Part shown: positions 3,596 to 34,688 of the stretch, one piece after another | Layout of the letters: each line of letters starts with the position of its first letter | Numbering within the stretch: position 1 is the stretch's first letter | Origin: Candidatus Magasanikiibacteriota bacterium | Lineage (GTDB): Bacteria; Patescibacteriota; Patescibacteriia; Magasanikbacterales; GWA2-37-8 | Direction: 5' to 3' | Assembly: GCA_030650025.1 (NCBI GenBank) | Contig: JAUSEN010000016.1 | Location: 9,428-73,427 of the forward strand | DNA length: 64,000 nucleotides | Notes under the pieces: generated by a model | The model's input: only the letters and a program-made list of their open reading frames with translations | Database searches by the model: none | Told to the model about the DNA's origin: nothing | Position numbers and translations under genes: made by a program

Positions 3596-4510
3596 ATGAC
3601 CAAGACCTGGTTTGAGGGATTCAGCAAGGCGGCCATCTTGGCCGCGACCCTGCTCGTGGGGTTCACGAGCGCGGGGTGCGAGGAGAGGAAGGCTTCTCTC
3701 CTCATCACCATGACCTTCGATCCGTCGGTCTCCGAGGAGACGAGGGTCGAGGTCCGGCAGGTTGGAACGGTTCTCCGCCTCGCCGTGTCCGGCGTCGAGG
3801 AGTTGGCCGGCGATGGCAAGCTCGAGAGCCAGTCGCTCGACACGGACAAGCAGACCCTCCGGTATCGCCCGCTCGTCCAGAGCGGTCGTCTCAACTTCCA
3901 TATGGTGTTTTACAGTGGAAGGGATGTCGCGGTCCCGCTGATCTTCGGGCGGGGAGCGGGCGACATCCAGGCCGGCATCGAAGTGCCGGTCGCGGTCGTC
4001 CTCTTCCCCTGTGCAGGGGATCAAACAAACTGCCCGGGGAAGATTCCGGACAAGAAGTGCACTCGTGACGACGAGTGCAACCCGGGCTTCTCCTGCGATG
4101 TGCCGAGCGGTCGGTGCCTGCAGAAGCAGGACCAGCCGGACGCGGCCGCGCCCGTCGACATGGCCACGCCGCCGGATCTCACCCCGATCCCGGATCTCCA
4201 GATCGAGATCGAGAAGGTCTTCCGGGTGATCAAGGCCGGATCCGCAGTATGTTGCGAGATCCGCGATGTCCGGGGCAATTGGCTCGAGGACATCAAGATC
4301 GCGGACGGAACCGAGATCAAAAACCCTAAGGCGAAGTACTGTTTTCCCTTCGCCAAGGGGCTCGACATCACCGGCCGGTGCAACTTGCCGGAGGCGGTCA
4401 TCGCCCTCGGCCAGGGGCGTGACGGGTGCGTCAAGAAGGGAGGTCGCATCGACACCCCCAGCTTCAACTGGACGGAGGGGGGGATCGCGGACGACTGCAG
4501 TCAGAAGTAG
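3596..4510 (+). CDS. Cys-rich lipoprotein, hypothetical, encoded in a high-GC island
   Basis: Lipobox LVGFTSAGC after a signal peptide; strong SD (caggaggaag) 6 nt upstream. GC of about 65% and GC3-rich codons, unlike the flanking genes. Confidence 0.55.
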   Translation: MTKTWFEGFSKAAILAATLLVGFTSAGCEERKASLLITMTFDPSVSEETRVEVRQVGTVLRLAVSGVEELAGDGKLESQSLDTDKQTLRYRPLVQSGRLNFHMVFYSGRDVAVPLIFGRGAGDIQAGIEVPVAVVLFPCAGDQTNCPGKIPDKKCTRDDECNPGFSCDVPSGRCLQKQDQPDAAAPVDMATPPDLTPIPDLQIEIEKVFRVIKAGSAVCCEIRDVRGNWLEDIKIADGTEIKNPKAKYCFPFAKGLDITGRCNLPEAVIALGQGRDGCVKKGGRIDTPSFNWTEGGIADDCSQK

Positions 4511-7478: not shown

Positions 7479-9275
7479 ATGCATAATAGGGGGCAGAATG
7501 GTTTTAGCTTAGTTGAAGTCATCGTGGCGGTGGCCGTGTTTGTGCTGTTTGCTCTTGGGGTTTACGGCGCGATAAATAGTATTTTGGTGATAGCGCGCGA
7601 GTCGCGCCTTAAAGTTGCTGTGGCTGGCGTGTTAAGCCAGCAAATGGAAATAATTCGTAGCGTGCCATATGACAGCGTCGGGACAATTAATGGCCTACCG
7701 AGCGGGGTGCTTTCAGCTACTTCTACGATTACCGATGGCGGCTTGGTTTTTAATGTCATTACTACAGTTAGTTTTACGGATGATGCCTTTGATGGAACCG
7801 CGACCAGTACACCCGCTGACACCAACCCGGCGGATTATAAAGTGGTGACCGTGGCAGTTAGGTGCGCCTTTTGCGTAAGCCAACAGCCAGCGGTGGGGCG
7901 CACGTTCGTGGCTCCTCCGGTTTTCGAGGGAGCGCCCGAGACCGGGTCGCTCTTTATTCATGTGGTGGACGCGGAAGGCTGGCCAGTACCTGGCGCCAGC
8001 ATCAGTATCAGAAATGATTTTGTTAATCCGCCAGTCGCTGTTGACGCGGTGACGGACATGGACGGCTGGTATACGCTATTAAGCGCTCCGACCAGCACTC
8101 TTGGCTATAATATTACTACCACTAAAAGTGGTTATTCGCTGGATTATACAGCGGCCTCTTCTACAAACAACCCCGCGCCCACCAAATTGCCGGCCAGCGT
8201 TAGTGTGGGGGCGGCCACGACCATCAGTTTCGCGATTGATTTAACAGCGACTCTAAATGTTAAGACAGTGGACAATGTCTGCGCGGGGGTTAGCGCCGTG
8301 CCTTTTGCGCTCTCTGGCCAGAAGTTGATTGGTTCTTTGCCAATGGTTTATAAATTTTATCAAGATTTTACTACTGATGGCGGTGGCGACAAAACTTTCA
8401 GCGCGCTCGAGTGGGATAATTATTCCATAATGTTAAATAGCGCTAATTATGACGTGGCGGGCACGGTGCCGCTTCTGCCTTTCCCACTTTTACCGGGGGC
8501 AGCGCAGAACGCTACGGTCGTAGTGGCTCCGCATTCTAATAATTCTTTATTGGTAATTGTTAAGGACGCGGTAACGGGGTTGCCGTTGGCGGACGCCACG
8601 GCCAGGCTAACTAAGTCTGGTTACGACCAATCCCTAGTGACTGGCCTTGGGTTTGTGGGGCAAACGGATTGGTCGCTCGGGAGCGGGCAAGAAAGTTTTG
8701 CCAACGCGCAAAAATATTTTTCGGATAGCGGCAGCTTGAATGTGGCCGGATCACCGGGCGATGTGGTGCTTAAATCGAGCGGAAATAATTCTTTTTTATC
8801 GTCCGGGTGGCTCGAATCCTCTACGTTTGACGCGCATACCAGCGACATTGCTTACGCTCATTTATATATAACGCCCACGGCGCAACCGCATAAAGCGGGA
8901 GCGACCCCGCTTCAGTTTCAGCTGGCCACGAGCAATTCGAGCTCGCCGGCGGTGTGGAATTTTTTGGGTTCAGATGGTTCAGCCAATACTTTTTATACCG
9001 CTACGAATACGGTGATAACATCGCTCCACAACGACCAACGTTATTTGCGTTACCGCGCCTTTTTGTCCACTGTTGATAATAAGTATACGCCCATACTCTC
9101 GGATTTTTATTATACATTCACGAGCAGTTGTACGCCTCCGGGCCAGGCATTTTTTACTAATTTAGCGGCCGCCACCTACACTTTGACTGTTTCTAAAACC
9201 GGGTATCAAACTAACAGCGGCTCTTTGAATATAGTGGGCAATGGGCAGGCGGTAGTTAATTTATCGCCCAGCTAG
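7479..9275 (+). CDS. large type IV pilin-like protein (prepilin leader MHNRGQNG|FSLVEV)
   Basis: Class III signal peptide with G|FSLVEV and a hydrophobic alpha-1 helix, followed by about 560 aa of Thr/Ser-rich beta-rich sequence. An extended -10 (tggtatact) lies at about 7455-7463. Confidence 0.75.
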   Translation: MHNRGQNGFSLVEVIVAVAVFVLFALGVYGAINSILVIARESRLKVAVAGVLSQQMEIIRSVPYDSVGTINGLPSGVLSATSTITDGGLVFNVITTVSFTDDAFDGTATSTPADTNPADYKVVTVAVRCAFCVSQQPAVGRTFVAPPVFEGAPETGSLFIHVVDAEGWPVPGASISIRNDFVNPPVAVDAVTDMDGWYTLLSAPTSTLGYNITTTKSGYSLDYTAASSTNNPAPTKLPASVSVGAATTISFAIDLTATLNVKTVDNVCAGVSAVPFALSGQKLIGSLPMVYKFYQDFTTDGGGDKTFSALEWDNYSIMLNSANYDVAGTVPLLPFPLLPGAAQNATVVVAPHSNNSLLVIVKDAVTGLPLADATARLTKSGYDQSLVTGLGFVGQTDWSLGSGQESFANAQKYFSDSGSLNVAGSPGDVVLKSSGNNSFLSSGWLESSTFDAHTSDIAYAHLYITPTAQPHKAGATPLQFQLATSNSSSPAVWNFLGSDGSANTFYTATNTVITSLHNDQRYLRYRAFLSTVDNKYTPILSDFYYTFTSSCTPPGQAFFTNLAAATYTLTVSKTGYQTNSGSLNIVGNGQAVVNLSPS

Positions 9276-9343
9276 CAGCCGCGCTTCAAAGGTCGTTCGC
9301 GACATCGCGAGAGACACTGCGCGGCATGATTTTGTCAAATCAT

Positions 9344-9940
9344 ATGAAATCGAATCAGAGTGTCAGAGGATTTACTTTAATTGAGGTCATGGTGGCCGTG
9401 GCGATATCGGCTTTGTTTTTTAGCGCGGTGGCGGAGATTTTTTTGACAAGCTTTAAAACCGCCGGGCTGGTGAGCGATGAGCTCGAAGGCCAGAGTGGCG
9501 CGCGGCGCGCGGTGAATGATTTTGTGAGCCAATTTAGGCTGGCTTCATACTCGAGCGCGGGTGACTACCCCCTGAAGACAGCCAATATTAATGAAATTGT
9601 TTTTTACGCCAATATTGATAAAGATAACTTAATTGAAAAAGTGCGTTATTATTTAACGGACACTACTTTATACCGAGGGGTAACTAAACCGATTGGCAAT
9701 CCCTTGTCGTATGGGTCAGCGAGTGAAACAGCGGAGACATTGCTCGAGGGGGTGCGGCTGAATGGGAACCCTTTATTTACTTATTACCCGGCGGGTATTG
9801 CCGAGGCGCTAGTCCAGCCAGTTGATATCACGACCGTGCGCTTGGCGGGCATTTATTTGCGCGTGGATAAGAAGCCAACGGCGTCGCCGACAGCTTGGAG
9901 CGTGGCGGCCCGGGCGCAGATGCGGAATCTTAAAAATTAA
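9344..9940 (+). CDS. type IV prepilin/pseudopilin (start moved to ATG 9344: MKSNQSVRG|FTLIEV)
   Basis: A classical prepilin leader appears only if the start is taken at the CATATG ATG (9344). The track's upstream ATG at 9326 lies inside the conserved leader palindrome. Confidence 0.75.
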   Translation: MKSNQSVRGFTLIEVMVAVAISALFFSAVAEIFLTSFKTAGLVSDELEGQSGARRAVNDFVSQFRLASYSSAGDYPLKTANINEIVFYANIDKDNLIEKVRYYLTDTTLYRGVTKPIGNPLSYGSASETAETLLEGVRLNGNPLFTYYPAGIAEALVQPVDITTVRLAGIYLRVDKKPTASPTAWSVAARAQMRNLKN

Positions 9941-9950
9941 TGCTTGCTTT

Positions 9951-11339
9951 ATGAAATCAAGATTGGTTTTAAAAAATTTTATGAAGACAGCTCCCGGGAG
10001 CATTTTGTTGTACGTAATTGTTTTTGGAGCGTTGTCTTTTTCTTTTATTGTGATTGGCGTCGCGGGCTACGCGATTGGAGAGCACCGGGCGGGAGCGTAT
10101 CGGCAAAATAGCGAACTGGCCTTCCAAATCGCGGAAGCGGGGATAGAATATTATCGCTGGCATCTTAATCATGACCCCGAAGATTTTCAGGATGGTACTG
10201 GCGTAGCTGGGCCATATGTCCACGAATTTAAGAGCGGTGACGAGGTAATCGGCTACTACTCGCTTAATATTATTCCGCCCCAAGCGACTTCGTCAGTCAC
10301 GGTAGTGGAGTCCACGGGCTGGCTCGCGAGCCAGCCGCAAAGCAAACGCACTATTAGGGTTAAGCTCGGCAGTTCCAGTTTCACAGATCTGGCTAATTAC
10401 GCGTTTGTCGGCAACACGGATATTTGGGTCGGCAATGATACTATTATTAACGGGAGGATTCATTCAAATAACGGCATCCGTTTTGACGGCGTGGCCACGG
10501 CGCCGGTAACCAGCGCGGTCGCGAGCTACCAGTGCCAGCCAATCCACGGCGAAGGATGCCAAAACCAAACCAAGCCGGGCATCTGGGGGCAGGGCGGGCC
10601 ACAGTCGTTTTGGAAATTTCCCGTGGCGGCGAAAGATTTTAGCACCATCGCGTCGGACTTGGCCAATATTAAAAGTTTGGCTCAAGAGAGCGGCCTGTAC
10701 TTTTCCGCCTCGGGGCAACAAGGGTGGTATCTGCACTTTTTAACTAATGGGACATTCACCGCCGCCAAGGTGACAGCGACCGACTGTTACGCTGGCCAAG
10801 ATTTAGATGAGGAAATTGACTCGTGGTATTGCATTGACATTAAAACTACTGACACGGCCACCACTTATATTATACCTACCAGCAGTTATATTTTTGTGGA
10901 AGACACTGTTTTTGTAGATGGAGTGGTAAAGGGGCGAGTGACGATTGGGAGCGGGGCGGAGAAGTCTATTATTATAAACGATGATTTGACTTATGACGCT
11001 AAAGATGGAACCAACGCTATTGGGCTGATCGCTGATCAGCACGTGCTTTTGCCGCACGATAGCCCGGAAGATTTAGAAGTTAACGCGGTAATTTACGCGA
11101 AAAATGGGGCGGCGCGCCGCTATTATTACGCGGGCGATTTTAAGGATTCATTGCTTTTGTATGGTTCAGTAATTTCGGCTGGCACCTGGACCTGGAGCTG
11201 GATATCCAATGGCGGCGCGGTGGTGTCGGGGTACCGTTCCACCACGATAATTTATGACAGTAATTTGACCTATAATCCGCCGGGAGGGTTTTCTTTTGGC
11301 AAGGTCTATACGCCGCTATTCTGGGAAGAAGTGCGTTAA
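9951..11339 (+). CDS. PilX-like minor pilin / pilus-associated protein with N-terminal TM anchor
   Basis: The start is likely MKSRLVLKNFMKTAPGSILLYVIVFGALSF; the track ORF extends upstream into the preceding gene. Membership in the pilin cluster is the main argument. Confidence 0.5.
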   Translation: MKSRLVLKNFMKTAPGSILLYVIVFGALSFSFIVIGVAGYAIGEHRAGAYRQNSELAFQIAEAGIEYYRWHLNHDPEDFQDGTGVAGPYVHEFKSGDEVIGYYSLNIIPPQATSSVTVVESTGWLASQPQSKRTIRVKLGSSSFTDLANYAFVGNTDIWVGNDTIINGRIHSNNGIRFDGVATAPVTSAVASYQCQPIHGEGCQNQTKPGIWGQGGPQSFWKFPVAAKDFSTIASDLANIKSLAQESGLYFSASGQQGWYLHFLTNGTFTAAKVTATDCYAGQDLDEEIDSWYCIDIKTTDTATTYIIPTSSYIFVEDTVFVDGVVKGRVTIGSGAEKSIIINDDLTYDAKDGTNAIGLIADQHVLLPHDSPEDLEVNAVIYAKNGAARRYYYAGDFKDSLLLYGSVISAGTWTWSWISNGGAVVSGYRSTTIIYDSNLTYNPPGGFSFGKVYTPLFWEEVR

Positions 11340-15181: not shown

Positions 15182-15871
15182 ATGAGTTTGAAAAAATTAT
15201 TACTAGGGGCGAGCCTCGGAATGATGGTGTTAAGTTTGGCAATGCCAACCGCTCCGGCTCTAGCTGATAACAAGTTTTGTTTTTGCGGAACTGATTTAAA
15301 AAAATTTCCGGAGACGGGCGATTTGAATGATTCGCAAAAATATAATTCTTGGTGCTTTCCTAACCAGATCCCCGAAGAAAAGTGCACGGCTACAATTTAT
15401 AAAGCCGAGGCACGGGCCCAGGCGCAGTTAGTGAAGTGCGACGTTTTTACGACGCAACAACAATGCAAACAGGCGGAAACAGACTGGAATACGGCATTTA
15501 CCATACTCTATAATTCGCGCCAGAACGAGGTTTTTAAAAATACGATGCAGGGGTCGGGCGGGCGAGCCTTGCCGGATTGCGTTTTGAAGGACGATTTGAC
15601 CGAAGACTGCCGCGATATCACGGTCTTGGTCGCTTTGGTAGTTAATTATGGGCGGGTAAGCCTTGGCATTATTGGGGCGTTTGCTTTGTGCTTTTTTATT
15701 TACGGCGGGTTTATTTTAATAATGTCGAGCGGCAACCCGGAAAAGGTTAAGAAAGGCACGGACACGATGCTGGCCGCGCTAATCGGCCTTTTTATCGCCT
15801 TTGTGGCTTACTTATTTATCCGCTTTTTGGGCACGGCCATTGGCATCAAAGAGCAATTTAGGTTGTTTTAG
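15182..15871 (+). CDS. VirB2/TrbC-like pilin-module protein, paralog 1 (signal peptide + Cys-containing ectodomain + 2-TM C-terminal module)
   Basis: C-terminal ...FIYGGFILIMSSGNPEKVKKGTDTMLAALIGLFIAFVAYLF matches the module shared by 11 paralogs in this window. Confidence 0.6.
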   Translation: MSLKKLLLGASLGMMVLSLAMPTAPALADNKFCFCGTDLKKFPETGDLNDSQKYNSWCFPNQIPEEKCTATIYKAEARAQAQLVKCDVFTTQQQCKQAETDWNTAFTILYNSRQNEVFKNTMQGSGGRALPDCVLKDDLTEDCRDITVLVALVVNYGRVSLGIIGAFALCFFIYGGFILIMSSGNPEKVKKGTDTMLAALIGLFIAFVAYLFIRFLGTAIGIKEQFRLF

Positions 15872-15875
15872 TTTT

Positions 15876-16868
15876 ATGATGAAGAAGTTTTTGATTTTAT
15901 TAGCGGTGCTAGGAGCTTTTTTATTATACCGGCCTTCTCCGGCGCAGGCGGCGGCGTGTGTTTGCGACCAAGGGGTACAAGAAGGAGTTCCAACAAATAA
16001 CTCTTGCCTTACCTTGACCCAGAAAGGCAATTTGACTGGTTGCAAATGGGTAGAGCAGGAGACAAATTATTGCGTTTGTAAAACCGTCATTGCCTCGCCA
16101 GACGGCCTTAATGATGCGTCGTGCACGCAAAAACTGTATTATGCAAGCGCATTTTACCAGGGGAGATTACTAGGAATAGCTTGCGACGCTGACTTTAACC
16201 CCGCCCTGCAAGTTGGCTGTGATGATTTTTGCGAATCCTTGGGGCCCAATTCTAAAAAAATATATTGCGGCAACGAAGCGGGGAAAGATGAAGTCGATAA
16301 TACGCCGATTAACCAAGCCAAGGGCTGTGCGCCCATTCACTGCTGGTGTGGCAACCCGGCTGGGTATTGCACGCACGATACCGTAAAGCCCAATGGCGGC
16401 AGTTTTTACGACAGACCTTCTTGCAATAAATATTGCGATGATAAAAATGTGAATGGCGAGACGGGGTGGAAGTCCACTCACTGGGATGATAAGTATACTA
16501 ATTATTATAAAATTCCGGTGTCTAATAACGGCTGTTTGTACGAGATCCCCCGGCCAAAAATTAGTCCTTATGATTTTACCGGTAATATAAAGCTGAACGC
16601 CATAAACTTAAACCCGCTTACCAAATTTCGCGGACCCCAGGATTTTCTCGGCAATGCTATTCGCGTAATTCTGTCTCTCATTGGCGCCTTGGTGTTGGTC
16701 ATGTATATTTATGGCGGGCTCCTCTGGATGACAGCGGCGGGCAATAGCGAACAAACCGGCAAAGCCAAACAGATTTTGGTGTGGTCCACGCTCGGGGTGG
16801 CGGTCATGCTCTCGAGCTATGTCTTGGTAACATTCTTGTTTAGAGACGTGCTTAAGTTAACGATTTAA
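15876..16868 (+). CDS. pilin-module paralog 2 with ~280-aa Cys-rich ectodomain
   Basis: Start reassigned to MMKKFLILLAVLG (15876). About 26 Cys in the ectodomain; C-terminal IYGGLLWMTAAGNSEQTGKAKQIL... module. Confidence 0.6.
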   Translation: MMKKFLILLAVLGAFLLYRPSPAQAAACVCDQGVQEGVPTNNSCLTLTQKGNLTGCKWVEQETNYCVCKTVIASPDGLNDASCTQKLYYASAFYQGRLLGIACDADFNPALQVGCDDFCESLGPNSKKIYCGNEAGKDEVDNTPINQAKGCAPIHCWCGNPAGYCTHDTVKPNGGSFYDRPSCNKYCDDKNVNGETGWKSTHWDDKYTNYYKIPVSNNGCLYEIPRPKISPYDFTGNIKLNAINLNPLTKFRGPQDFLGNAIRVILSLIGALVLVMYIYGGLLWMTAAGNSEQTGKAKQILVWSTLGVAVMLSSYVLVTFLFRDVLKLTI

Positions 16869-16870
16869 TT

Positions 16871-17785
16871 ATGAAGAAATTTTTGGTAGTAGCGGTGATG
16901 GCACTCGGCATAGCCGGAATTTGGGGCGTAGCGACTGCCCGCGCGCAAGTAGGCTGCGCGGATAACCGCGGGTGCGCGCCAGGCGATGTTTGTATTAATA
17001 ATGTTTGCAAACCGGCAGTGGCCGATGGCCAGGTGTGTGTTAACAGCCAAGAGTGTTTGTCGGGGCGGTGCGTGAGTGGAATTTGCAAATCACCGGGCCA
17101 AGTGGGCGAGGCCTGTACCGAGGATGGCGAGTGTGTTACGAACAATTGTTTTGACGGTTTGTGCGGCCAGAAAGCCGAATGCAACGCGGATGGTGATTGC
17201 GGCGCGGGGAGGACGTGCACGCAGAATAAGTGCGTGGAAACATTTTCGACCGAGCCGCCGGCTCCGCCTCCGTCAGGGGATAGTGGCGGGCTAAGCCAGT
17301 GCCAAGATGAAAAAGGCTGCCCGGCTGGGCAAGTCTGTGTTGACCATGTCTGCCGCGTGCCTGTGGGGACTTCTGATTCTGGCAAACCGGTAGTAAATAG
17401 GTATTGTTTAAAAGACGACATGTGCCAGCCGATGGATCCGGTGAACGGCTGCCCGGCTGGCTGGGCGCCTAAACCCAAGTGCCCCTGCCCGAATAGCGAC
17501 AGCGGCGCGGAGTGCATTCCGCTCGAGAATCCGCTCGCCGGCAACACCGTGGATATTTTTGGAATCTTCGGCCGGATCTTGCGCGTGGCGCTTGGCTTAA
17601 TTGGTTCCCTTACGCTTTTAATGCTGGTGTGGGGAGGGTTCCAATGGATGATGTCGGGCGGGAGCCCGGAGCGCATCAAGAAGGGTACGGACACGATGCT
17701 CTGGGCCGCGATTGGAGTGGTACTAGTATTCGCCAGCTATTTCATTTTGAGTAATTTTGTAGACTATTTAACTGGCGTTCAATAG
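16871..17785 (+). CDS. pilin-module paralog 3 with five tandem 4-Cys modules
   Basis: Repeats such as CADNRGCAPGDVCINNVC, CVNSQECLSGRCVSGIC and CTEDGECVTNNCFDGLC; C-terminal VWGGFQWMMSGGSPERIKKGTDTML module. Confidence 0.6.
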   Translation: MKKFLVVAVMALGIAGIWGVATARAQVGCADNRGCAPGDVCINNVCKPAVADGQVCVNSQECLSGRCVSGICKSPGQVGEACTEDGECVTNNCFDGLCGQKAECNADGDCGAGRTCTQNKCVETFSTEPPAPPPSGDSGGLSQCQDEKGCPAGQVCVDHVCRVPVGTSDSGKPVVNRYCLKDDMCQPMDPVNGCPAGWAPKPKCPCPNSDSGAECIPLENPLAGNTVDIFGIFGRILRVALGLIGSLTLLMLVWGGFQWMMSGGSPERIKKGTDTMLWAAIGVVLVFASYFILSNFVDYLTGVQ

Positions 17786-17790
17786 GAATT

Positions 17791-17801
17791 TGTGGTATAA
17801 T
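17791..17801 (+). promoter_or_regulatory. extended -10 promoter (tgtggtataat) for paralog 4
   Basis: TGnTATAAT lies about 55 nt upstream of the strong SD gggaggtga and ATG 17854. Confidence 0.4.
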
Positions 17802-17853
17802 AGATTTTAGCTATGTTGACGTTATTATTAAACATAGGAAGGGAGGTGACACT

Positions 17854-18252
17854 ATGATTAAAATGCAGAAATTTCTCGCTCCAATCATGATGTCTTTAAC
17901 ACTCGTTAGCGCCATGCCAGCGATCGCGGCGACAGACACTCTTAAGGATACGGATCTCTTACCGCCGAAGATAGGAGAAACGACCGGCCTTGGCACTGGT
18001 GATATCCGTTTGACCGTCGCGAAAATTATTCGCGTCGCTATGGGCCTCCTTGGTATCGTGGCCGTGGTTATTATCTTGATTGGCGGCTTTACTTGGATGA
18101 CCGCGGGCGGCAACGAAGAAAAGGTAGGCGAAGCCAAGAAATGGATTTTCGCCGGTATTATTGGTCTCGCGATTATTCTTTCCGCTTACGCGATTGCCAG
18201 CTTCGTTATTACGCAATTGGTGGACGCGACTACGCAAGCCGGAGTCATTTAG
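17854..18252 (+). CDS. pilin-module paralog 4 (short form)
   Basis: Signal peptide, short ectodomain, ILIGGFTWMTAGGNEEKVGEAKKWIFAGIIGLAIILSAYAIASFV. Confidence 0.65.
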   Translation: MIKMQKFLAPIMMSLTLVSAMPAIAATDTLKDTDLLPPKIGETTGLGTGDIRLTVAKIIRVAMGLLGIVAVVIILIGGFTWMTAGGNEEKVGEAKKWIFAGIIGLAIILSAYAIASFVITQLVDATTQAGVI

Positions 18253-18413
18253 TAGTCTCCAATTTATTAAGTTTCCATTGGTTAGCAGGGGGAGAAGAGA
18301 AACGACTAACTTGGTCAGCTTGCCAAGCCGAGCGCAGATAGAGATATATGCACTTCGCTTGGTAAGCTACCACCCCCTGCTCTGCCAATAAATTATTTTG
18401 AATTACGAACAGT

Positions 18414-18833
18414 ATGGCGAAAATATTTTTTAAAAAATCTGCTTGGGCGGGTATAGCGGCGGGCATCGCACTGCTCACAGCTTTAGTGGTTCCAGCAGAT
18501 TCAGCCAGGGCAATTTCGGATTTGGAATTGGGGCTGGATTATGGCACGTTTACCGGCTTAAGCTATAGCGACCCGAGAGCCGTGGCCGCGGCCATTATTC
18601 GGGTGGCTCTCGGGCTCCTCGGCACCGTGGCGTTAATAATTATTTTGATTGGCGGATATACTTGGATGACCGCGGGCGGCAACGAAGAAAAAGTAGAAGA
18701 AGCCAAAAAATGGATTAAAGCGGGCGTGATTGGCCTCGCGATTATACTTTCGGCTTTCGCGATTACCAGTTTTGTGGTGCAACAGTTGGTGCGAGCCACG
18801 CAAGAGGCGAGTAACGTAAATTTGGCGCAATAA
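18414..18833 (+). CDS. pilin-module paralog 5 (short form)
   Basis: ILIGGYTWMTAGGNEEKVEEAKKWIKAGVIGLAIILSAFAI; closely related to paralog 4. Confidence 0.65.
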   Translation: MAKIFFKKSAWAGIAAGIALLTALVVPADSARAISDLELGLDYGTFTGLSYSDPRAVAAAIIRVALGLLGTVALIIILIGGYTWMTAGGNEEKVEEAKKWIKAGVIGLAIILSAFAITSFVVQQLVRATQEASNVNLAQ

Positions 18834-18839
18834 TTTTTT

Positions 18840-19463
18840 ATGTTTAAAGTTAAAGCGTTAAGCGGAATTAGTGCCTTAATTTTAAGCTGGTCATTTTTAG
18901 TTCCCCTCCCGGCCTTGGCTGACAGCTATGGCATTAGCCAAACGGCAGACCAAGTAAACATTGAGAACCCAAATTTATTGCCAAAAACCGTGGCGGGAGA
19001 GTCCACGGTTCCAGAAGTTATTGGCGCGATTATTGGGTACGCACTGTCCCTCGTTGGCATAGTTTTTTTCGGCCTGATGCTTTACGCGGGCGTGCGCTGG
19101 ATGATTGCCATGGGCAACACGGAGGACGTGGAAAAGGCCAAGCAAACTTTGGAAGCGGCCGCCATTGGTTTAGTAATAGTTTTGGCGGCTTATGTTTTGA
19201 CTAGCGAGATATTTAAGGTTTTGAGCCCAGCCACCGCGCCGACGGATTCGGCGCAGTTAGACGCCAAGTTAGGGCAGAAATTAGGCGAGCCAGTCGATTG
19301 CACTAACGGCCAGAAGGAATTACTAGAGTCCGATGTGGATTGCGGGGGAATTTGCTCTAAGAAATGCGAAGCCGGAAAGCATTGTTCCGAAGGCAAGGAT
19401 TGCCTGTCCGGAGCTTGCCTCGCGTCTCGAGATCCAAACAATCCCGGTTTTATTTGCCAATAA
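18840..19463 (+). CDS. pilin-module paralog 6 with Cys-rich domain C-terminal to the TM hairpin
   Basis: [40 protein letters not shown] followed by [40 protein letters not shown]. Confidence 0.6.
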
Positions 19464-19481
19464 TTGTGAGTAGCGCTTTAT

Positions 19482-19886
19482 ATGATTATGATAAGAAAAG
19501 TTTTAAATAATATTTTTTTAACCGGGACGCTTTTGCTCTCTGGTTTAATTTTTACTAATTTTGTTTTTACTAATTTTGTTAGCGCGGTTGGTTTGTATGA
19601 CGCCGGCGGGAAGTTGGAACAGGCGGTCGGGGCGGATTCGCAGGTAGGTTTGCGCGGTGATTTAACCTCCACTATTACCACGGTAGTAACGGCAGTGTTA
19701 GCCGTTGTGGGCACAGTTTTTTTGCTTCTCACGATTTACGCTGGCATTCTTTGGATGACCGCGGCGGGTGCGGAAGACCAAATAGAAAAGGCGCAAAATA
19801 TAATTAAAGCCACGGTAATTGGTTTGTTTATAACCATGGGCGCGTACGCGATTACGGCTTTTGTGGGCGGGCGGTTAAGCGGCTAA
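19482..19886 (+). CDS. pilin-module paralog 7
   Basis: IYAGILWMTAAGAEDQIEKAQNIIKATVIGLFITMGAYAITAFV. Confidence 0.65.
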   Translation: MIMIRKVLNNIFLTGTLLLSGLIFTNFVFTNFVSAVGLYDAGGKLEQAVGADSQVGLRGDLTSTITTVVTAVLAVVGTVFLLLTIYAGILWMTAAGAEDQIEKAQNIIKATVIGLFITMGAYAITAFVGGRLSG

Positions 19887-19888
19887 GT

Positions 19889-20419
19889 ATGAGACGAGCC
19901 CAAGTAATTTTAATGCTGGTGGCGGTAGGCGGTATCACTTTTGGGGCGGTTACTTTTGGACAGGCTTTAGGGTTTCAGGATTCGGTTGGCCTGGTAACGA
20001 ACGCGGTGGGGCCAGCGACTAAGGTTGGTTTGGAAGGAAATTTAACCACGTCAATTGCGACAGCAGTTAAAATAGCGCTCGCCTTAGTCGGAACAATTTT
20101 TTTGGGTCTCACGGTTTACGCCGGGATTCTGTGGATGACGGCATCGGGAGCGGAAGACAAAATCGAAAAAGCGCAAGGCATAATTAAAGCCACGGTGATA
20201 GGCCTCGGCATCACTTTTGGAGCCTACGCGATTACAGCTTTTGTGGGCAGTAAATTAGGGGGCAGTGGCGCCCCTACCCCGAGCCAAGTTATTTCTTGCA
20301 CGGAAGCGCCCAATAATGGCAACTGCGTTACCGACAATGGCGCCCCTTGCCCGGGCGGCACCAAAGAAATCCAGGGGACTGATTGCGCCCCAGGCAAGCT
20401 CTGTTGCGCCCCGCTCTAA
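19889..20419 (+). CDS. pilin-module paralog 8 with short C-terminal Cys-rich tail
   Basis: VYAGILWMTASGAEDKIEKAQGIIKATVIGLGITFGAYAITAFV followed by ...CTEAPNNGNCVTDNGAPCPGG...CAPGKLCCAPL. Confidence 0.6.
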   Translation: MRRAQVILMLVAVGGITFGAVTFGQALGFQDSVGLVTNAVGPATKVGLEGNLTTSIATAVKIALALVGTIFLGLTVYAGILWMTASGAEDKIEKAQGIIKATVIGLGITFGAYAITAFVGSKLGGSGAPTPSQVISCTEAPNNGNCVTDNGAPCPGGTKEIQGTDCAPGKLCCAPL

Positions 20420-20451
20420 AAATGAAAAAATTATTTTAAATAGTAAAGGGT

Positions 20452-20958
20452 ATGATTAAAAATTTTTTAGTAAGTTTTATAATGATATTAGCCCTGATGC
20501 CCGGGGTCGCGTTGGCCGCGCCTAATATTGGTTTGGGTGAAGATGGGTTAGCGACAGGCGTCGCGGCGGGCGCGGGGTATGCCCCAGCCACGGACACGAC
20601 GCTGTCGGAATCGGTGGGTAAGGTCATTCGGGTGATTTTGTCCATGGTGGGAACAATTTTTCTGGCGCTAACGGTTTACGCCGGAATTCTGTGGATGACC
20701 GCGGCGGGAGCGGAAGACCAAATAGAAAAGGCGCAAAATATTATCAAGGCCGCGTCGCTTGGTTTAATAATCGTGATTGCCGCTTATGGCATAACCACTA
20801 TAGTGGTTGCGGCCATGACATTTGCCTCGCAACCAAATACCGGAGCAACTGTCGGGGGCAAGCCCAGCCAATCATTTTGGCAACAGCAAGGGCAGTATTG
20901 GCAAGACTGGGCTAACAATTGGAAAATTTCTACCAAGAGTATGTTTGGAATTAAATAG
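20452..20958 (+). CDS. pilin-module paralog 9
   Basis: VYAGILWMTAAGAEDQIEKAQNIIKAASLGLIIVIAAYGITTIV; about 85-90% nt identity to paralogs 7 and 8 across the module. Confidence 0.6.
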   Translation: MIKNFLVSFIMILALMPGVALAAPNIGLGEDGLATGVAAGAGYAPATDTTLSESVGKVIRVILSMVGTIFLALTVYAGILWMTAAGAEDQIEKAQNIIKAASLGLIIVIAAYGITTIVVAAMTFASQPNTGATVGGKPSQSFWQQQGQYWQDWANNWKISTKSMFGIK

Positions 20959-20962
20959 ATCG

Positions 20963-21052
20963 CGATTGCGCCGCGCTTCAAAGGACCCGCCCGCCTCGCT
21001 ACGCGAAGCGTTGCGGGCAGGCACTGCGCGGCACGATTTTGTTAAATCGCAT
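20963..21052 (+). promoter_or_regulatory. conserved structured 5' leader (variant B) ending in palindrome CGATTTTgttAAATCG + CATATG
   Basis: Shares gccgcgcttcaaagg...cactgcgcggca(c/t)gattt with leaders at 9278-9343 and 22911-22961; contains a nested GC palindrome homologous to 54606-54645. Confidence 0.55.
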
Positions 21053-21526
21053 ATGAAAAAACTTTTTGCGTATCAACTAGTGGCAGTATTCGTAGCGTTC
21101 CTCGCTTTGTCTTTTGTGGTAATAACCCCGGCGCGGGCGGAGGACACCAGCTCTGATATCCGGAAACAACTCGAGGCGGCGGGTGGCACGCAAGGCGCGA
21201 ATTATGGGGAAGCGGTTGACCCGCGAGTCACCGCGGCTTTGATTATTCGGGCGATGCTCGGCATGACTACGATTATTTTGATTATTTTAAATATTTACGC
21301 GGGAATCACTTGGATGACAGCCGGCGGAAACGAGGAAAAGGTGGACAAAGCCAAAACGACAATTAGAAATTCCACTATCGGACTGATTATTGTTTTGTCC
21401 GCTTACTCGATAACTGTTTTTGCCACTTACATCGCGCGGGGCCAGCAGTTTGGCCTCGGCGGCGGGCCTAACGCTTTATCGCGCGGTTTAGGCAATTTCT
21501 TCCAGTCGCGGCAGGGTCCGAATTAA
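21053..21526 (+). CDS. pilin-module paralog 10 (start moved to CATATG ATG 21053: MKKLFAYQLVAVFVAF...)
   Basis: The track ORF begins at 20822 but its first 77 aa are the translated GC-rich leader. A plausible signal peptide begins at 21053. C-terminal IYAGITWMTAGGNEEKVDKAKTTI module. Confidence 0.6.
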   Translation: MKKLFAYQLVAVFVAFLALSFVVITPARAEDTSSDIRKQLEAAGGTQGANYGEAVDPRVTAALIIRAMLGMTTIILIILNIYAGITWMTAGGNEEKVDKAKTTIRNSTIGLIIVLSAYSITVFATYIARGQQFGLGGGPNALSRGLGNFFQSRQGPN

Positions 21527-22712: not shown

Positions 22713-22910
22713 AAAAATAGCTTATCCCGCCACAGCGGGACCCCGCCTCGCGGCGGTGGGAAGGCTACTGTTTTATCCGCTCCGACGCCCCGCTTTGCGG
22801 GGGTCGGAGCCCCGACTTTACGTCGGGGTTAAACTATGGGATCAAGTGGCTCTATGGTAATCAATTTGGCCTTAAAAATCAAGTTATGGTATAATTTAAG
22901 AGTAACTAAT

Positions 22911-22961
22911 ATTTGCGCCGCGCTTCAGAGGACGTTGCGCGGCATGATTTCGTCAAATCAT
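22911..22961 (+). promoter_or_regulatory. conserved structured 5' leader (variant C) with palindrome TGATTTcgtcAAATCA + CATATG, preceded by an extended -10 (tggtataat at ~22888)
   Basis: ttgcgccgcgcttcagaggacgttgcgcggcatgatttcgtcaaatcatATG. Confidence 0.55.
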
Positions 22962-23324
22962 ATGTACAAGAAGATAAAAGTACTGTCGACTGTTTTTATA
23001 ACTTTTTTGGTTACTTGGCCAATGACAGCCCTGGCGCAATATGGTTTGAACGAAGCGGCCGGGAAAATGGGGTTTGATAGAAGCAAGAATGTTTACGGAG
23101 TGATTAGCCTCGTGGTGGGGGCAGCGTTGGCGTTTACCGGACTAGTGTTTTTTGGAATGATGATGTACGCTGGTGTGCGCTGGATGACCGCGCGCGGCAA
23201 CGAAGATTTGGCAGAGAAGGCCAAACAAGCCCTCGCGAATTCTACGATTGGTTTTGTAATCGTGGCGCTTTCTTACGCCCTGACGCGGTTTGTGTTTGGA
23301 GCGCTTAATTTGCCGACATTTTAA
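22962..23324 (+). CDS. pilin-module paralog 11 (start moved to ATG 22962: MYKKIKVLSTVFITFLVTWPMTALA)
   Basis: C-terminal MYAGVRWMTARGNEDLAEKAKQALANSTIGFVIVALSYALTRFV; the track ORF starts upstream inside the leader. Confidence 0.6.
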   Translation: MYKKIKVLSTVFITFLVTWPMTALAQYGLNEAAGKMGFDRSKNVYGVISLVVGAALAFTGLVFFGMMMYAGVRWMTARGNEDLAEKAKQALANSTIGFVIVALSYALTRFVFGALNLPTF

Positions 23325-30529: not shown

Positions 30530-32310
30530 GGTGCGTACCGCAAAAAGGTCGTTTTTTACGACCGCCACGTCCCCTGCACCAGAACGCTTCGCGTCCGGTT
30601 CAGGGCTTCGCAGTCTAGCTCTGGCTACTAGCGAAGCGCCACTCGGGACCTCTAGAAAATTGCGTAGCTTACACAAAAAACGATGTATATTGCTACAAAA
30701 TTTACTCGAGTTACTCCAAGTGGTTAAAAACCCCACCCATTTTATTGGGCCGCTTGGAAAAGCGGCTTTTATTATTTTGGTCGGCTCAGATCGGTGAGAC
30801 AGAGATTTCTCCCCGCTCTAGGCGGGTCGAAATGACAGTGCAGAGTGGACTGGCTGGTACTTTGACAATTCAGGCAAGCACCATGCACCACCATAAACCA
30901 CAAGGGTTTATGGCAAACAAGGGTGCATGGCTAAATAACCATGAACCACAAGGGTTCATGGCAAGATTAATGCTTATTTTAAACATCAAGGTCTGGTGTT
31001 TAAAATAATAAAGGGTAACTTCATAAACATGAATATTGTCATGAAAAATTATGAAGTCAACTCAACGTAAGCACCATTTGGTGTTTTCGTTGTGTGCAAT
31101 TTCAACAAGAGCATATGGTGGATGCCTAGACACTAAAAGATGAAGAAGGACGTTGCAAGGTGCGATAAGCCTCGGGGAGCTCCTAAGCAAGCTGTGATCC
31201 GGGGATTTCCGAATGGGGAAACCCGTTACAAAGAAATTTGTAACATCGTATACTGAATTCATAGGTGTACGAGGAAGACCTGGCGAAGTGAAACATCTCA
31301 GTAGCCAGAGGAAAATAAATCGAAGAGATTCCCTTAGTAGTGGCGAGCGAAAAGGGATCAGCCTAAACCTTATACATGTTGTTGCCGTAACAGATTGATC
31401 GCAAGGTTAATTATGAGCGGCAGTTTAAAGACGCAGGTCGTTGTGTATATGGTGTAATAAGACAATTACGCGTCCGCCCTGCGGCGGACGGTGAAAATGT
31501 GACTTTCCTAGTAGAACGCTCTGGAACGAGCGGCCGCAGAGGGTAAGAGCCCCGTACGCGAAAGGAGTCTATATAATCATGGTAGTTGTTCTTGAGTAGG
31601 GCGGAACTCGTGAAATTCCGTCTGAATTCGGGCCGACTATGGTCTAAGGCTAAATACTTTTAGTGATCGATAGTGGACTAGTACCACGAGGGAAAGGTGA
31701 AAAGTAGCCCGGTGAGGGCGATGAAATAGTATCTGAAACCATATGTTTACAAAGAGCGGAAGACCGGAGTACCCAGAATTATTCCCCCCTACGGGGGGAA
31801 TAATTCTGGGTCCTGGTCGACCGTGTTCCTATTGAAGAATGAGCCTGCGAGTGTGCTGTATGTCGTTGCTTAAACCCTTCTGGGGTGGAGGCATAGCGAA
31901 AGCGAGTCTTAACGGGCGTATATAATGGCATGCACATAACCCGAAACCGGGTGAGCTATCCATGACCAGGATGAACCCTTCCGAAAGGAAGGGGGAGGTC
32001 CGAACACACGAGCCGTGCAACACTCGGTGATGAGTTGTGGATGGGAGAGAAATTCTAATCGAACTCGGTGATAGCTGGTTCTCCTTGAAATAGTTTTAGG
32101 ACTAGCCTCGCGCGTTCCCTTTGGCGGTAGAGCACTGGATGAGACTCGGGTCCTTCGGGATACCAGTTTCAATCAAACTCCGAATGCCGAAGATTAAAAG
32201 CGCGGGAGTCAGACTGTGGGGGCTAAGCTCCATAGTCAAAAGGGAAACAGCCCTGATCGCCAGCTAAGGTCCCTAAATCCATATTAAGTGTGAAAGGTGG
32301 TGTTAACTCT

Positions 32311-32348
<38 letters not shown>

Positions 32349-33172: not shown

Positions 33173-33408
33173 AGCGGACTTGAGAAATCGAGCACGCTAG
33201 GATTGGGACGGATATAGCAAAAAGTAAACAATCATTAAAGATGAGCAGAGTCATCGAAATATTAACAGCCATTCAAAAAATGCTACCTTGCTTTGCAGTA
33301 ATGCAAAGAATAATCCGGTCATAGCTTATGAGAGACTATACGCTATGCTCCTCCGACGAAACTCGGAGGAAGAAGATTTAGTCCTTCGTCATTAAACAGG
33401 AAACGAAG
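33173..33408 (+). mobile_element. group I-like intron (ORF-less), inserted after the U of GGU|AGCG (E. coli ~L1931, helix 69/70 region)
   Basis: The conserved ccgtcctaaggt.agcgaaattccttgtcgg is interrupted by 236 nt; the 5' exon ends in U and the insert ends in G. Confidence 0.6.
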
Positions 33409-33430
33409 AGCGAAATTCCTTGTCGGGTAA

Positions 33431-34573: not shown

Positions 34574-34636
34574 GTACGATGTCGGCTCATCGCATCCTGG
34601 GGGTGAAGAAGCTCCCAAGGGTTTGGCTGTTCGCCA

Positions 34637-34688
<52 letters not shown>

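What the first reader, a model, noticed from the sequence alone, without database searches (positions are those of the whole stretch)
15876..17785. Large cysteine-rich ectodomains with tandem 4-Cys modules fused to the pilin module
Paralog 3 contains at least five consecutive ~22-aa modules with the spacing C-x5-C-x5/6-C-x3/4-C (e.g. CADNRGCAPGDVCINNVC; CVNSQECLSGRCVSGIC; CTEDGECVTNNCFDGLC; CNADGDCGAGRTCTQNKC; CQDEKGCPAGQVCVDHVC). Paralog 2 has ~26 Cys in 280 aa with a different spacing. These resemble eukaryote-like disulfide-knotted adhesion and binding modules (EGF, antistasin or Dickkopf-like), which are unusual as extensions of a pilin-type membrane anchor.
Basis: seen in the sequence. 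Interest (0 to 1): 0.5.

Follow-up and report, generated by a model that had tools for sequence, protein, structure and literature searches.

The report
Cysteine-rich surface domains on VirB2-like pilins
Two neighbouring genes of an uncultured ultra-small (Patescibacteria) bacterium encode conjugative-type pilin subunits that each carry a large, probably disulfide-bonded outer domain, which most likely turns an otherwise plain pilin into a surface or pilus-borne binding protein.

Summary
Window 15876-17785 holds two intact genes, P2 (330 aa, 18 Cys) and P3 (304 aa, 26 Cys). They are members 2 and 3 of a tandem array of ten VirB2-like pilin genes (Pfam PF18895; an 11th lies nearby) in a Candidatus Magasanikbacteria genome.

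P3 reads: signal peptide, five 4-Cys modules, Pro-rich linker, conserved 6-Cys domain, ENPL motif, two-helix pilin hairpin. The modules pass Pfam DUF7107. They fall below threshold for EB and Dickkopf_N, and show no EGF or antistasin match. P2's ectodomain is an orphan.

The cysteines look structural and extracytoplasmic:
- They are almost fully conserved against a syntenic relative, while other ectodomain residues are 28-42% identical.
- Cys counts are even in 96 of 104 Cys-rich N-terminal pilin extensions surveyed.
- There are no CxxC motifs.

Across 72 related loci (71 from other genomes), about 22% of 468 pilins carry Cys-rich N-terminal extensions and 17% carry Cys-rich tails. Tandem DUF7107-type modules are rare (4 of 468), and P3 has the most.

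Patescibacterial pilin arrays are published. I found no description of these ectodomains. Best reading: modular adhesive pilins. That function is inferred, not shown.

The parts
15182..15871 (+). P1: first pilin paralog (229 aa). It has a signal peptide, a ~125-aa ectodomain with 8 Cys, and a T4SS_pilin hairpin.
   Evidence: Pfam PF18895 35.9 bits. All 8 ectodomain Cys are conserved in the L001 ortholog, against 35% identity for non-Cys residues.
15876..16868 (+). P2: pilin paralog (330 aa, 18 Cys). Signal peptide is aa 1-25 (15876-15950), the orphan Cys-rich ectodomain is aa 26-250 (15951-16625), and the two-helix pilin hairpin is aa 254-325 (16635-16850).
   Evidence: PF18895 30.7 bits, with no Pfam, NCBIfam or PDB-sequence match for the ectodomain. 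Full-length homologs are P0016-P0018 and L001 8985-9995. 17 of 18 Cys are conserved. The AF2 model is unusable, pLDDT 45.8.
16871..17785 (+). P3: pilin paralog (304 aa, 26 Cys) with the tandem 4-Cys modules.
   Evidence: PF18895 40.6 bits and PF23416 DUF7107 33.8 bits, both above their cut-offs. Identical to the NCBI hypothetical protein Q7K39_03230 of a Candidatus Magasanikbacteria MAG.
16871..16945 (+). P3 signal peptide (MKKFLVVAVMALGIAGIWGVATARA, with an A-x-A site).
   Evidence: Read from the sequence. No signal-peptide predictor was available.
16955..17008 (+). Module 1, CADNRGCAPGDVCINNVC (spacing 5-5-4).
   Evidence: Conserved in the L001 ortholog. AF2 beta-hairpin, pLDDT about 78.
17036..17233 (+). 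Modules 2-4 (aa 56-72, 82-98, 104-121). This block is absent from the L001 ortholog.
   Evidence: Modules 2 and 3 have spacing 5-4-4 and the G-x2-C...C-x-SG-x-C signature shared with DUF7107 and Dickkopf_N relatives. AF2 confidence is low for modules 2 and 3.
17243..17299 (+). Pro-rich linker FSTEPPAPPPSGDSGGLSQ.
   Evidence: Sequence. pLDDT below 50.
17300..17353 (+). Module 5, CQDEKGCPAGQVCVDHVC.
   Evidence: Conserved in P0002, P0003 and L001.
17405..17515 (+). Membrane-proximal 6-Cys domain (YCLxxxxCQPxxPxxxCPxGWxxxPxCPCPxxxxxxC).
   Evidence: Conserved in P0002-P0007, including orthologs that have no 4-Cys module. It is the best-predicted part of the ectodomain, pLDDT 84-89.
17525..17536 (+). 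ENPL motif, which marks the boundary between the extension and the pilin core.
   Evidence: N220, P221 and L222 are invariant or nearly so in alignment A2. The motif was found in 31 of 468 surveyed pilin ORFs, and in many of them it directly follows the signal peptide.
17555..17773 (+). P3 pilin hairpin: two hydrophobic helices joined by the loop SGGSPERIKKGTD.
   Evidence: AF2 helices 229-262 and 266-301. 78% identical to the L001 ortholog, against 45% for the ectodomain.
17854..18252 (+). P4: short Cys-free pilin (132 aa), the candidate major subunit.
   Evidence: It is the only paralog with a canonical Shine-Dalgarno, GAAGGGAGGTGACACT, and this sequence is identical in L001. It is the most conserved paralog, 94% in the module.
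18414..21526 (+). P5-P10: six more pilin paralogs. P6 (18840-19463) and P8 (19889-20419) carry C-terminal Cys-rich tails of 8 and 6 Cys.
   Evidence: Nine of the ten array paralogs exceed the PF18895 cut-off; P8 falls just below it, 25.6 vs 26.6 bits. All 6 Cys of the P8 tail are conserved in L001.
22836..23324 (+). An eleventh pilin paralog, separated from the array by a glycosyltransferase gene and two tRNA genes.
   Evidence: PF18895 34 bits. tRNAs.

Best explanation
P2 and P3 are modular VirB2-type (T4SS_pilin) subunits. Each is exported by Sec and its signal peptide is cut. The protein is then held in the cytoplasmic membrane by the two-helix pilin hairpin, with the short basic loop facing the cytoplasm and the N-terminus facing outward. 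The 200-225-residue N-terminal region therefore lies outside the cell, where its paired cysteines form disulfides. P3 would carry 13 disulfides: five small two-disulfide beta-hairpin modules on a Pro-rich stalk, followed by a conserved 6-Cys base domain. P2 would carry 9 disulfides in an orphan fold. I propose that these ectodomains are binding (adhesin) modules. They would be presented either on the cell surface or, at low stoichiometry or at the tip, on a pilus built mainly from the short Cys-free paralogs. P4 is the likely major subunit. Fast ectodomain divergence and gain or loss of modules would tune the target specificity of an organism presumed, like other Patescibacteria, to depend on a host. 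Shown here: the architecture, the integrity of the genes, orthology and synteny, Cys conservation and parity, module family, and faster ectodomain evolution. Inferred: topology, disulfide bonding, incorporation into a pilus, and adhesion.
For: Architecture:
- Pilin module above Pfam's cut-off in 9 of the 10 array paralogs (P8 just below, 25.6 vs 26.6 bits) and in an eleventh paralog nearby.
- AF2 gives a helix-loop-helix at P3 aa 229-301.

Real genes:
- A syntenic array with the same gene order exists in L001, with orthologs on the diagonal.
- P2 and P3 homologs appear to share contigs in other assemblies, judged from matching contig lengths.

Structural cysteines:
- Window Cys that align to Cys in L001: P1 8/8, P2 17/18, P3 14/14, P8 tail 6/6. 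Non-Cys identity is 28-42%.
- 96 of 104 N-terminal pilin extensions with at least 4 Cys have an even Cys count.
- No CxxC motifs.

Extracellular module family:
- P3 passes DUF7107.
- An exhaustive search found 178 clusters with the module.
- Of 101 relatives scanned, 53, 33 and 31 match DUF7107, EB and Dickkopf_N, with partner domains such as fn3, cohesin, VWA, PhoD and GH18.

Variable ectodomain on a conserved anchor:
- Ectodomain versus module identity is 33-45% versus 71-81% for P1-P3.
- dN is 0.48-0.75 versus 0.16-0.22.
- P3 orthologs carry 0, 2 or 5 modules.
- Pilins carrying the ENPL motif range from no extension up to 26 Cys.

Major and minor subunits:
- Only P4 has a strong Shine-Dalgarno, and it is conserved in L001.

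Context from the literature:
- VirB2 arrays of 2-11 genes are reported in Patescibacteria.
- The array is essential in S. epibionticum.
- No PrgB-type adhesin was detected in the phylum (PMC12102498, PMC10633639).
Against: - No T4SS machinery gene lies in the window or in the 9.7 kb upstream of it.
- Within 6 kb of the arrays in the other 71 loci surveyed, only one large Walker-A ORF was found. A link to a T4SS or a pilus is therefore not shown for this clade.
- A 200-aa domain on every subunit is hard to fit on the outside of a tightly packed VirB2 filament, so any incorporation would have to be sparse or at the tip. This is my inference.
- A profile of the pilin modules found no solved VirB2 or TraA by sequence.
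- No disulfide-forming enzyme was seen in the window.
- No binding partner or expression data exist.
Confidence: 0.5

Rival explanations
1. Membrane anchor only. The VirB2-like hairpin never polymerises in these paralogs and simply tethers disulfide-rich proteins to the cell surface, for example as envelope, receptor or adhesion proteins. The 'pilin array' would then be a family of two-helix-anchored surface proteins.
For: No VirB4 or VirB6 genes lie near the array here or in the related loci surveyed. Extensions reach 454 aa with 36 Cys in other loci (L061), which is awkward for a filament subunit. The pilin-module profile finds no solved conjugative pilin by sequence.
Against: The hairpin is far more conserved than a generic anchor would need to be: 71-94% identity where the ectodomains show 33-53%. 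The large paralogs always sit in one operon-like array with short, extension-free paralogs. The family is classed with T4SS pilins, and the S. epibionticum array lies inside an essential T4SS cluster (PMC10633639).
Confidence: 0.25
2. Cleavable pro-domain. The Cys-rich region is cut off near the ENPL motif (and the C-terminal tails of P6 and P8 are trimmed). This would release a soluble disulfide-rich protein and leave a standard short pilin.
For: In many pilins carrying the ENPL motif, the motif follows the signal peptide directly. Cleavage before it would therefore give every ortholog the same mature N-terminus. From my own knowledge, not checked here: VirB2 and TrbC pilins undergo extensive N- and C-terminal trimming and cyclisation, and TraA and VirB2 have unusually long leaders.
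Against: No protease or cyclase gene was seen near the array. The 6-Cys base domain is conserved immediately next to ENPL with no recognisable cleavage site. A disposable leader would not be expected to keep every cysteine across about 50% divergence, although a secreted product could.
Confidence: 0.15
3. Extracellular metal or redox function. The cysteines would bind metal ions (metallothionein-like) or shuttle electrons, rather than form structural disulfides.
For: Cys density is very high, 13% of the P3 ectodomain. In relative L001 a DsbD_2/HMA/cupredoxin protein and a P-type ATPase lie about 1.8 kb downstream of the array.
Against: Cys counts are even in 96 of 104 cases. There are no CxxC or CxxCH motifs and almost no His. 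The modules belong with disulfide-bonded extracellular families, DUF7107, EB and Dickkopf_N. The L001 copper-related genes have no counterpart in the window.
Confidence: 0.05
4. Artefact. P2 and P3 would be mis-assembled or frameshift fusions of a Cys-rich secreted-protein gene with a pilin gene.
For: The source is a metagenome-assembled genome. One related locus (L050) does show an artificial fusion across a run of N.
Against: Both reading frames are continuous. The same fused architecture occurs in independent assemblies from JGI, Logan, ENA and NCBI. An identical contig region was also assembled independently from SRR13727527.
Confidence: 0.02

Closest known systems
Patescibacterial VirB2-like pilin arrays (Quinonero-Coronel et al. 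2025, PMC12102498; Wang et al. 2023, PMC10633639)
   Same: Tandem array of sequence-divergent PF18895/VirB2-like genes in a Patescibacteria chromosome. There are 10 genes here; the published range is 2-11. The host is a monoderm.
   Different: The published descriptions treat VirB2 as a small protein and mention no extra domains. Here 5 of 10 paralogs carry Cys-bearing extensions of up to 225 aa. The array is not next to virB4, whereas 1135 of 1948 assemblies in that study had the pilin gene near virB4.
Modular type IV pilins, e.g. PilB of Streptococcus sanguinis (Raynaud et al. 2021, PMC8179133)
   Same: [quoted passage not shown]
   Different: It is an unrelated pilin class, with a single N-terminal helix, a class III signal peptide and a T4P machinery. 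The module is C-terminal and is a vWA domain. Here the anchor is a two-helix VirB2-type hairpin and the extension is mostly N-terminal and disulfide-rich. This is an analogy, not homology.
Bartonella Trw T4SS with multiple variable TrwL (VirB2) and TrwJ (VirB5) copies
   Same: Tandemly amplified, sequence-variable VirB2 paralogs, proposed to make variant pili for host-specific binding (PMC12857230; PMC12102498).
   Different: The binding role there is attributed to variant pili built from the VirB2 and VirB5 copies. That the paralogs are short and lack added domains is from my own knowledge. It is a diderm host-associated pathogen.
Pfam DUF7107 (PF23416), EB module (PF01683), Dickkopf_N (PF04706), and the Myxococcus Cys-rich repeat TIGR04201
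   Same: Short tandem 4-Cys units with the same spacing and the G-x2-C...C-x-SG-x-C signature, found in secreted or extracellular multidomain proteins.
   Different: None of the 149 best-scoring non-self cluster representatives carrying the module has a pilin motif. Only DUF7107 is reached at Pfam's threshold. I found no paper that mentions DUF7107, so the family name carries no functional information.
VirB5 pilus-tip adhesin of Gram-negative T4SS
   Same: The proposed role: a minor component that gives a VirB2 filament its binding specificity (PMC12857230).
   Different: VirB5 is a separate helical protein without a pilin hairpin. No sequence or fold similarity was found here.

Membership tests
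Pfam T4SS_pilin (PF18895), VirB2-like pilins | Score above the family's gathering threshold (26.6 bits). | tested here: met
   P2 30.7 bits and P3 40.6 bits. Nine of the ten array paralogs are above threshold; P8 falls just below at 25.6 bits.
Pfam T4SS_pilin (PF18895), VirB2-like pilins | N-terminal signal peptide followed by two hydrophobic helices joined by a short polar loop. | tested here: met
   Hydrophobic N-terminus with an A-x-A site, read from the sequence. AF2 helices 229-262 and 266-301 in P3, and 254-286 and 291-325 in P2. No dedicated signal-peptide or TM predictor was available.
Pfam T4SS_pilin (PF18895), VirB2-like pilins | Encoded with, or dependent on, T4SS machinery (VirB4, VirB6, VirB3). 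| tested here: not met
   None was found in the 64-kb window or in the 9.7 kb upstream. Only one large Walker-A ORF lies within 6 kb of the arrays in the other 71 loci surveyed. The rest of the genome could not be read, so absence from the genome is not shown.
Pfam T4SS_pilin (PF18895), VirB2-like pilins | Polymerises into an extracellular filament. | not testable with these tools
   This needs microscopy or biochemistry. The review PMC12857230 still treats it as only a possibility for Patescibacteria.
Pfam TrbC/VirB2 (PF04956) | Score above the gathering threshold (27.9 bits). | tested here: not met
   P3 14.4 bits and P4 17.8 bits, although the P4 match spans model positions 9-97 of 98. A profile of the pilin modules hits no solved VirB2 or TraA sequence.
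Pfam DUF7107 (PF23416) | Score above the gathering threshold (24.6 bits). | tested here: met
   P3 scores 33.8 bits over 3 stretches, the best covering aa 29-72 against model positions 2-46 of 48. 53 of 101 module relatives also match.
EB module (PF01683) | Score above the gathering threshold (24.3 bits). | tested here: not met
   P3 scores 22.0 bits. 33 of 101 relatives match at E<=0.001.
Dickkopf N-terminal Cys-rich region (PF04706) | Score above the gathering threshold (25 bits), or a significant fold match to Dkk CRD1. | tested here: not met
   P3 scores 15.6 bits. PDB sequence search gives Dkk1 at E about 2. Foldseek gives the Dkk4 N-terminal region at E=1.4, probability 0.12.
   No hit at E<=1 for P2 or P3 against Pfam-A.
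Myxococcus Cys-rich repeat (TIGR04201) | Score above the NCBIfam cut-off (25 bits). | tested here: not met
   15.1 bits, 2 stretches, aa 102-121.
Disulfide-bonded extracellular module (general class) | Paired, conserved cysteines in an extracytoplasmic segment. | tested here: met
   Cys counts are even: 26 in P3, 18 in P2, and 96 of 104 cases in the survey. Window Cys conserved in the L001 orthologs: P1 8/8, P2 17/18, P3 14/14 aligned. The segment lies between the signal peptide and the first helix.
Disulfide-bonded extracellular module (general class) | Actual disulfide connectivity. | not testable with these tools
   Model coordinates are not returned, so Cys-Cys distances could not be measured. 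pLDDT is below 50 for modules 2 and 3.

The most novel reading that the evidence does not exclude
Patescibacteria have turned the conjugative-type (VirB2) pilin into a modular display scaffold. Hypervariable, disulfide-knotted ectodomains grafted onto the outward-facing N- or C-terminus of particular paralogs would be the missing host-recognition adhesins of the essential patescibacterial T4SS/pilus. They would be co-assembled at the tip of, or sparsely along, a filament made of short paralogs. Module accretion (0, 2 or 5 modules in the P3 lineage) would set reach and specificity.
Probability: 0.3. Interest if true: 0.75.

Novelty: new variant of a known kind. Interest (0 to 1): 0.5.

Why it matters
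How Patescibacteria recognise and hold on to their hosts is an open question. Their T4SS and its pilin array are essential in the one species tested, yet the function is described as completely unknown, and no PrgB-type adhesin was detected in the phylum (PMC11665869, PMC12102498). VirB2 pilins are normally regarded as small structural subunits. If some paralogs carry large, fast-evolving, disulfide-stabilised ectodomains, two things follow. First, there are concrete candidate host-binding proteins to express, label and block. Second, there is a testable prediction that the filament, if it exists, is heteropolymeric. It would also extend the 'modular pilin' principle from type IV pili to the unrelated conjugative pilin class. 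If the rival readings hold, the result is more modest: a descriptive note on a lineage-specific family of surface proteins.

Tried and rejected
- Word-indexed homolog search with the P3 modules alone found nothing. The exhaustive search was needed.
- The AF2 model of P2 was too poor to use, pLDDT 45.8.
- A profile of the pilin modules against PDB sequences returned only spurious designed-repeat hits.
Synonymous sites are saturated against the only ortholog available (pS 0.72-0.87), and a metagenome scan found no closer strain.
- No DNA-level tandem repeat exists in P3, so the modules are not recent duplications.
- The promoter and terminator scan was uninformative.
- No lipobox was seen in P2 or P3, by inspection.
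- The DsbD-like neighbour seen in L001 has no homolog in the window.
- A look-up of the window's last gene, to extend the context downstream, failed.
- The intracellular metal-binding and frameshift-fusion readings were considered and rejected (see rivals).
Full report
**What is there**

The flagged interval 15876-17785 contains exactly two + strand genes, P2 (15876-16868, 330 aa) and P3 (16871-17785, 304 aa). They are the second and third members of a head-to-tail array of ten genes (15182-21526). Nine of the ten end in a Pfam PF18895 'T4SS_pilin' module scoring above its gathering threshold, and P8 falls just below it (25.6 vs 26.6 bits). An eleventh copy lies at 22836-23324, beyond a glycosyltransferase gene and two tRNA genes.

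P3 is identical to a hypothetical protein of a Candidatus Magasanikbacteria MAG, and P2 to a protein that NCBI calls 'pilin'. A 23S rRNA interrupted by a group I intron, with no 16S gene beside it, fits a Patescibacteria/CPR genome; that association is from my own knowledge.

**Checking the observation**

All five modules quoted for P3 are present (aa 29-46, 56-72, 82-98, 104-121, 144-161). Their regularity is not a side effect of the 13% Cys content. Among 100,000 shuffles of the ectodomain, none reached five non-overlapping modules and only four reached four.

P2 has 18 Cys in 330 aa. The 26 Cys belong to P3, and '280 aa' matches an antisense ORF (16852-17694) that overlaps P3.

P3 also has a sixth, differently spaced 6-Cys region (aa 179-215). 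It is followed by an ENPL motif and then the two-helix hairpin. P1 carries 8 ectodomain Cys. P6 and P8 carry Cys-rich tails after the hairpin.

**Are they real genes?**

Yes. A syntenic locus from an independent JGI metagenome (L001) has the same flanking genes: RuvB, type-4-pilin-like genes, a nucleotidyl transferase and a solute-binding protein. It also has the same order of pilin paralogs, with clear one-to-one orthology (40-74% identity on the diagonal).

Full-length P2 homologs (P0016-P0018) and P3 homologs (P0002-P0007) occur in other assemblies. P2-like and P3-like proteins appear to lie on the same short contigs, judged from matching contig lengths. This disposes of the frameshift-fusion refutation.

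**What the cysteines are doing**

Four observations point to structural disulfides.
- Against the L001 orthologs, window Cys align to Cys in 8/8 (P1), 17/18 (P2), 14/14 aligned (P3) and 6/6 (P8 tail) positions. The surrounding residues are only 28-42% identical.
- I surveyed 468 pilin-module ORFs from 72 loci: the window, L001 and 70 genome-collection loci whose record titles name Magasanikbacteria, Uhrbacteria, Kerfeldbacteria, Parcubacteria and others. In that survey, 104 ORFs have at least 4 Cys in the N-terminal extension, and 96 of those have an even number.
- None of P1, P2, P3, P6 or P8 has a CxxC motif, and His is nearly absent.
- The segment lies between a signal peptide and the first hydrophobic helix. 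The inter-helix loop carries the basic residues (SGGSPERIKKGTD). [quoted passage not shown]

So the extensions are extracytoplasmic and very probably disulfide-bonded. Actual connectivity could not be tested.

**What the modules are related to**

P3 reaches Pfam's threshold for DUF7107 (33.8 vs 24.6 bits). It falls short for the EB module (22.0 vs 24.3), Dickkopf_N (15.6 vs 25) and the Myxococcus Cys-rich repeat (15.1 vs 25). There is no EGF, antistasin, TNFR or FOLN signal.

An exhaustive phmmer search of 1.84 billion cluster representatives found 178 clusters carrying the module. Of 101 relatives scanned, 53, 33 and 31 match DUF7107, EB and Dickkopf_N. Their partner domains are typical of secreted proteins: fn3, cohesin, VWA, PhoD, GH18 and trypsin. 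The named sources include Myxococcota and a barnacle, so the module is not specifically eukaryotic. None of the other 149 top representatives carries a pilin motif.

The AF2 model of P3 (pLDDT 65.8) gives beta-hairpins for modules 1, 4 and 5 and a confident 6-Cys domain, but a poor prediction for modules 2 and 3. Fold searches were not significant. The P2 ectodomain has no family, no relative in the PDB, and an unusable model.

**How unusual is the fusion?**

Cys-rich extensions on these pilins are common in this clade. In the survey, 22% of ORFs have at least 4 Cys N-terminally and 17% have at least 4 Cys C-terminally. 69 of 72 loci hold at least one such gene, and extensions reach 454 aa with 36 Cys. 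Almost all of the extensions tested lack any Pfam family.

The DUF7107-type module in tandem is rare. Four of 468 ORFs have two or more copies, and window P3 has the most, with five.

The xENPL motif that marks P3 and its orthologs occurs in 31 of the 468 ORFs. In some of them it follows the signal peptide directly. In others a 2-Cys loop, then 6-8, 14-16 and finally 26 Cys are interposed. This looks like stepwise accretion at the mature N-terminus.

Between the window and L001, modules 1 and 5 are orthologous, and modules 2-4 are an insertion or a deletion. There is no DNA-level repeat, so the expansion is not recent.

Ectodomains evolve about three times faster than the hairpin at non-synonymous sites (dN 0.48-0.75 versus 0.16-0.22). 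Synonymous sites are saturated, so dN/dS cannot be interpreted.

**Likely mechanism**

The best-supported reading is that P2 and P3 are modular pilins. A conserved VirB2-type hairpin would anchor them in the membrane and possibly polymerise. A variable, disulfide-stabilised ectodomain would be displayed outward as a binding module.

P4 is short, Cys-free and the most conserved paralog. It is the only one with a canonical Shine-Dalgarno, and that sequence is identical in L001. It is therefore the natural candidate for the major subunit, with P1-P3 as minor or tip subunits.

This would supply the adhesin that surveys failed to find in Patescibacteria (PMC12102498). It also parallels the 'modular pilin' strategy shown for the unrelated type IV pilin PilB (PMC8179133) and the variable TrwL arrays of Bartonella (PMC12857230).

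The weak points are as follows.
- No T4SS machinery is nearby, either here or in related loci.
- There is no evidence that any patescibacterial VirB2 polymerises.
- A bulky domain is hard to fit on a filament subunit.
- No disulfide-forming enzyme was seen in the window.

The rival readings are a non-polymerising two-helix membrane anchor, a cleavable pro-domain trimmed at ENPL, extracellular metal or redox chemistry, and assembly artefact. I rate these at 0.25, 0.15, 0.05 and 0.02.

**Novelty**

Arrays of divergent VirB2-like pilins in Patescibacteria are published, and the array is essential in S. epibionticum (PMC12102498, PMC10633639, PMC12857230). In the searchable literature I found no description of large Cys-rich ectodomains on these pilins and no paper mentioning DUF7107.

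I therefore class this as a new variant of a known kind. It is a solid descriptive finding with a plausible but untested functional reading. Interest is moderate.

Noticed in passing
window 31093-34959, 33419-33631, 35127-35235: The 23S rRNA match spans about 940 nt more than the Rfam model length and contains a group I intron. A 5S gene follows, and no 16S gene lies beside them.
   Followed up: no
window 7479-9275, 9326-9940, 9822-11339: Upstream of the VirB2-like array lie two type-4-pilin-like genes with the N-terminal methylation motif (one of 598 aa with a CarboxypepD_reg domain) and a 505-aa orphan. The gene order is the same in L001. Two unrelated pilin systems therefore sit within about 6 kb of each other.
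   Followed up: partly
window 18840-19463 (P6) and 19889-20419 (P8): These two pilin paralogs carry their Cys-rich regions after the hairpin (8 and 6 Cys). The P6 tail contains one 4-Cys module ([18 protein letters not shown]). All 6 Cys of the P8 tail are conserved in L001, whereas the P6 tail is largely unalignable with its ortholog.
   Followed up: partly
window 19482-20419 versus L001 12310-12849: P7 (no tail) and P8 (tail) both correspond to a single tailed gene in L001. This means a duplication in the window lineage or a loss in the other.
   Followed up: partly
window 17825-17853: P4 is the only array member with a canonical Shine-Dalgarno. The 16-nt stretch GAAGGGAGGTGACACT before the ATG is identical in the L001 ortholog, even though synonymous sites are saturated.
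   Followed up: yes
window 3596-4510: An orphan 304-aa ORF with a lipoprotein-like N-terminus (…TSAGC), 13 Cys and one module-like stretch CTRDDECNPGFSCDVPSGRC. It has no Pfam family.
   Followed up: no
L001 15587-19049: In the syntenic relative, a membrane protein combining HMA, DsbD_2 and cupredoxin-like regions, plus a P-type ATPase, is inserted between the array and the last pilin gene. The window has no homolog of the DsbD_2 protein.
   Followed up: partly
window 16852-17694 (- strand): A 280-aa antisense ORF overlaps P3.
   Followed up: no
window 16949-17540: The P3 ectodomain has 59% G+C, against 47.5% for the window and 50.6% for its own pilin module. This may simply reflect Cys, Gly, Ala and Pro codons. 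Foreign origin was not tested.
   Followed up: no
loci L005, L007, L009, L010, L012 and others: Many genome records titled 'uncultured Gammaproteobacteria' or 'Pseudomonadales' carry Patescibacteria-type pilin arrays 50-60% identical to P3. The record titles look taxonomically wrong.
   Followed up: no
L050 3209-5104: A run of N joins a solute-binding-protein gene to a pilin gene into one apparent 631-aa ORF. This is an assembly artefact. It was included in the counts but is called out here.
   Followed up: yes
L074 1-9700 (upstream of the window): The 9.7 kb upstream of the window holds ParE and PemK toxin genes, a 903-aa LTD/PKD surface protein and signal peptidase II. There is no T4SS gene.
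   Followed up: no
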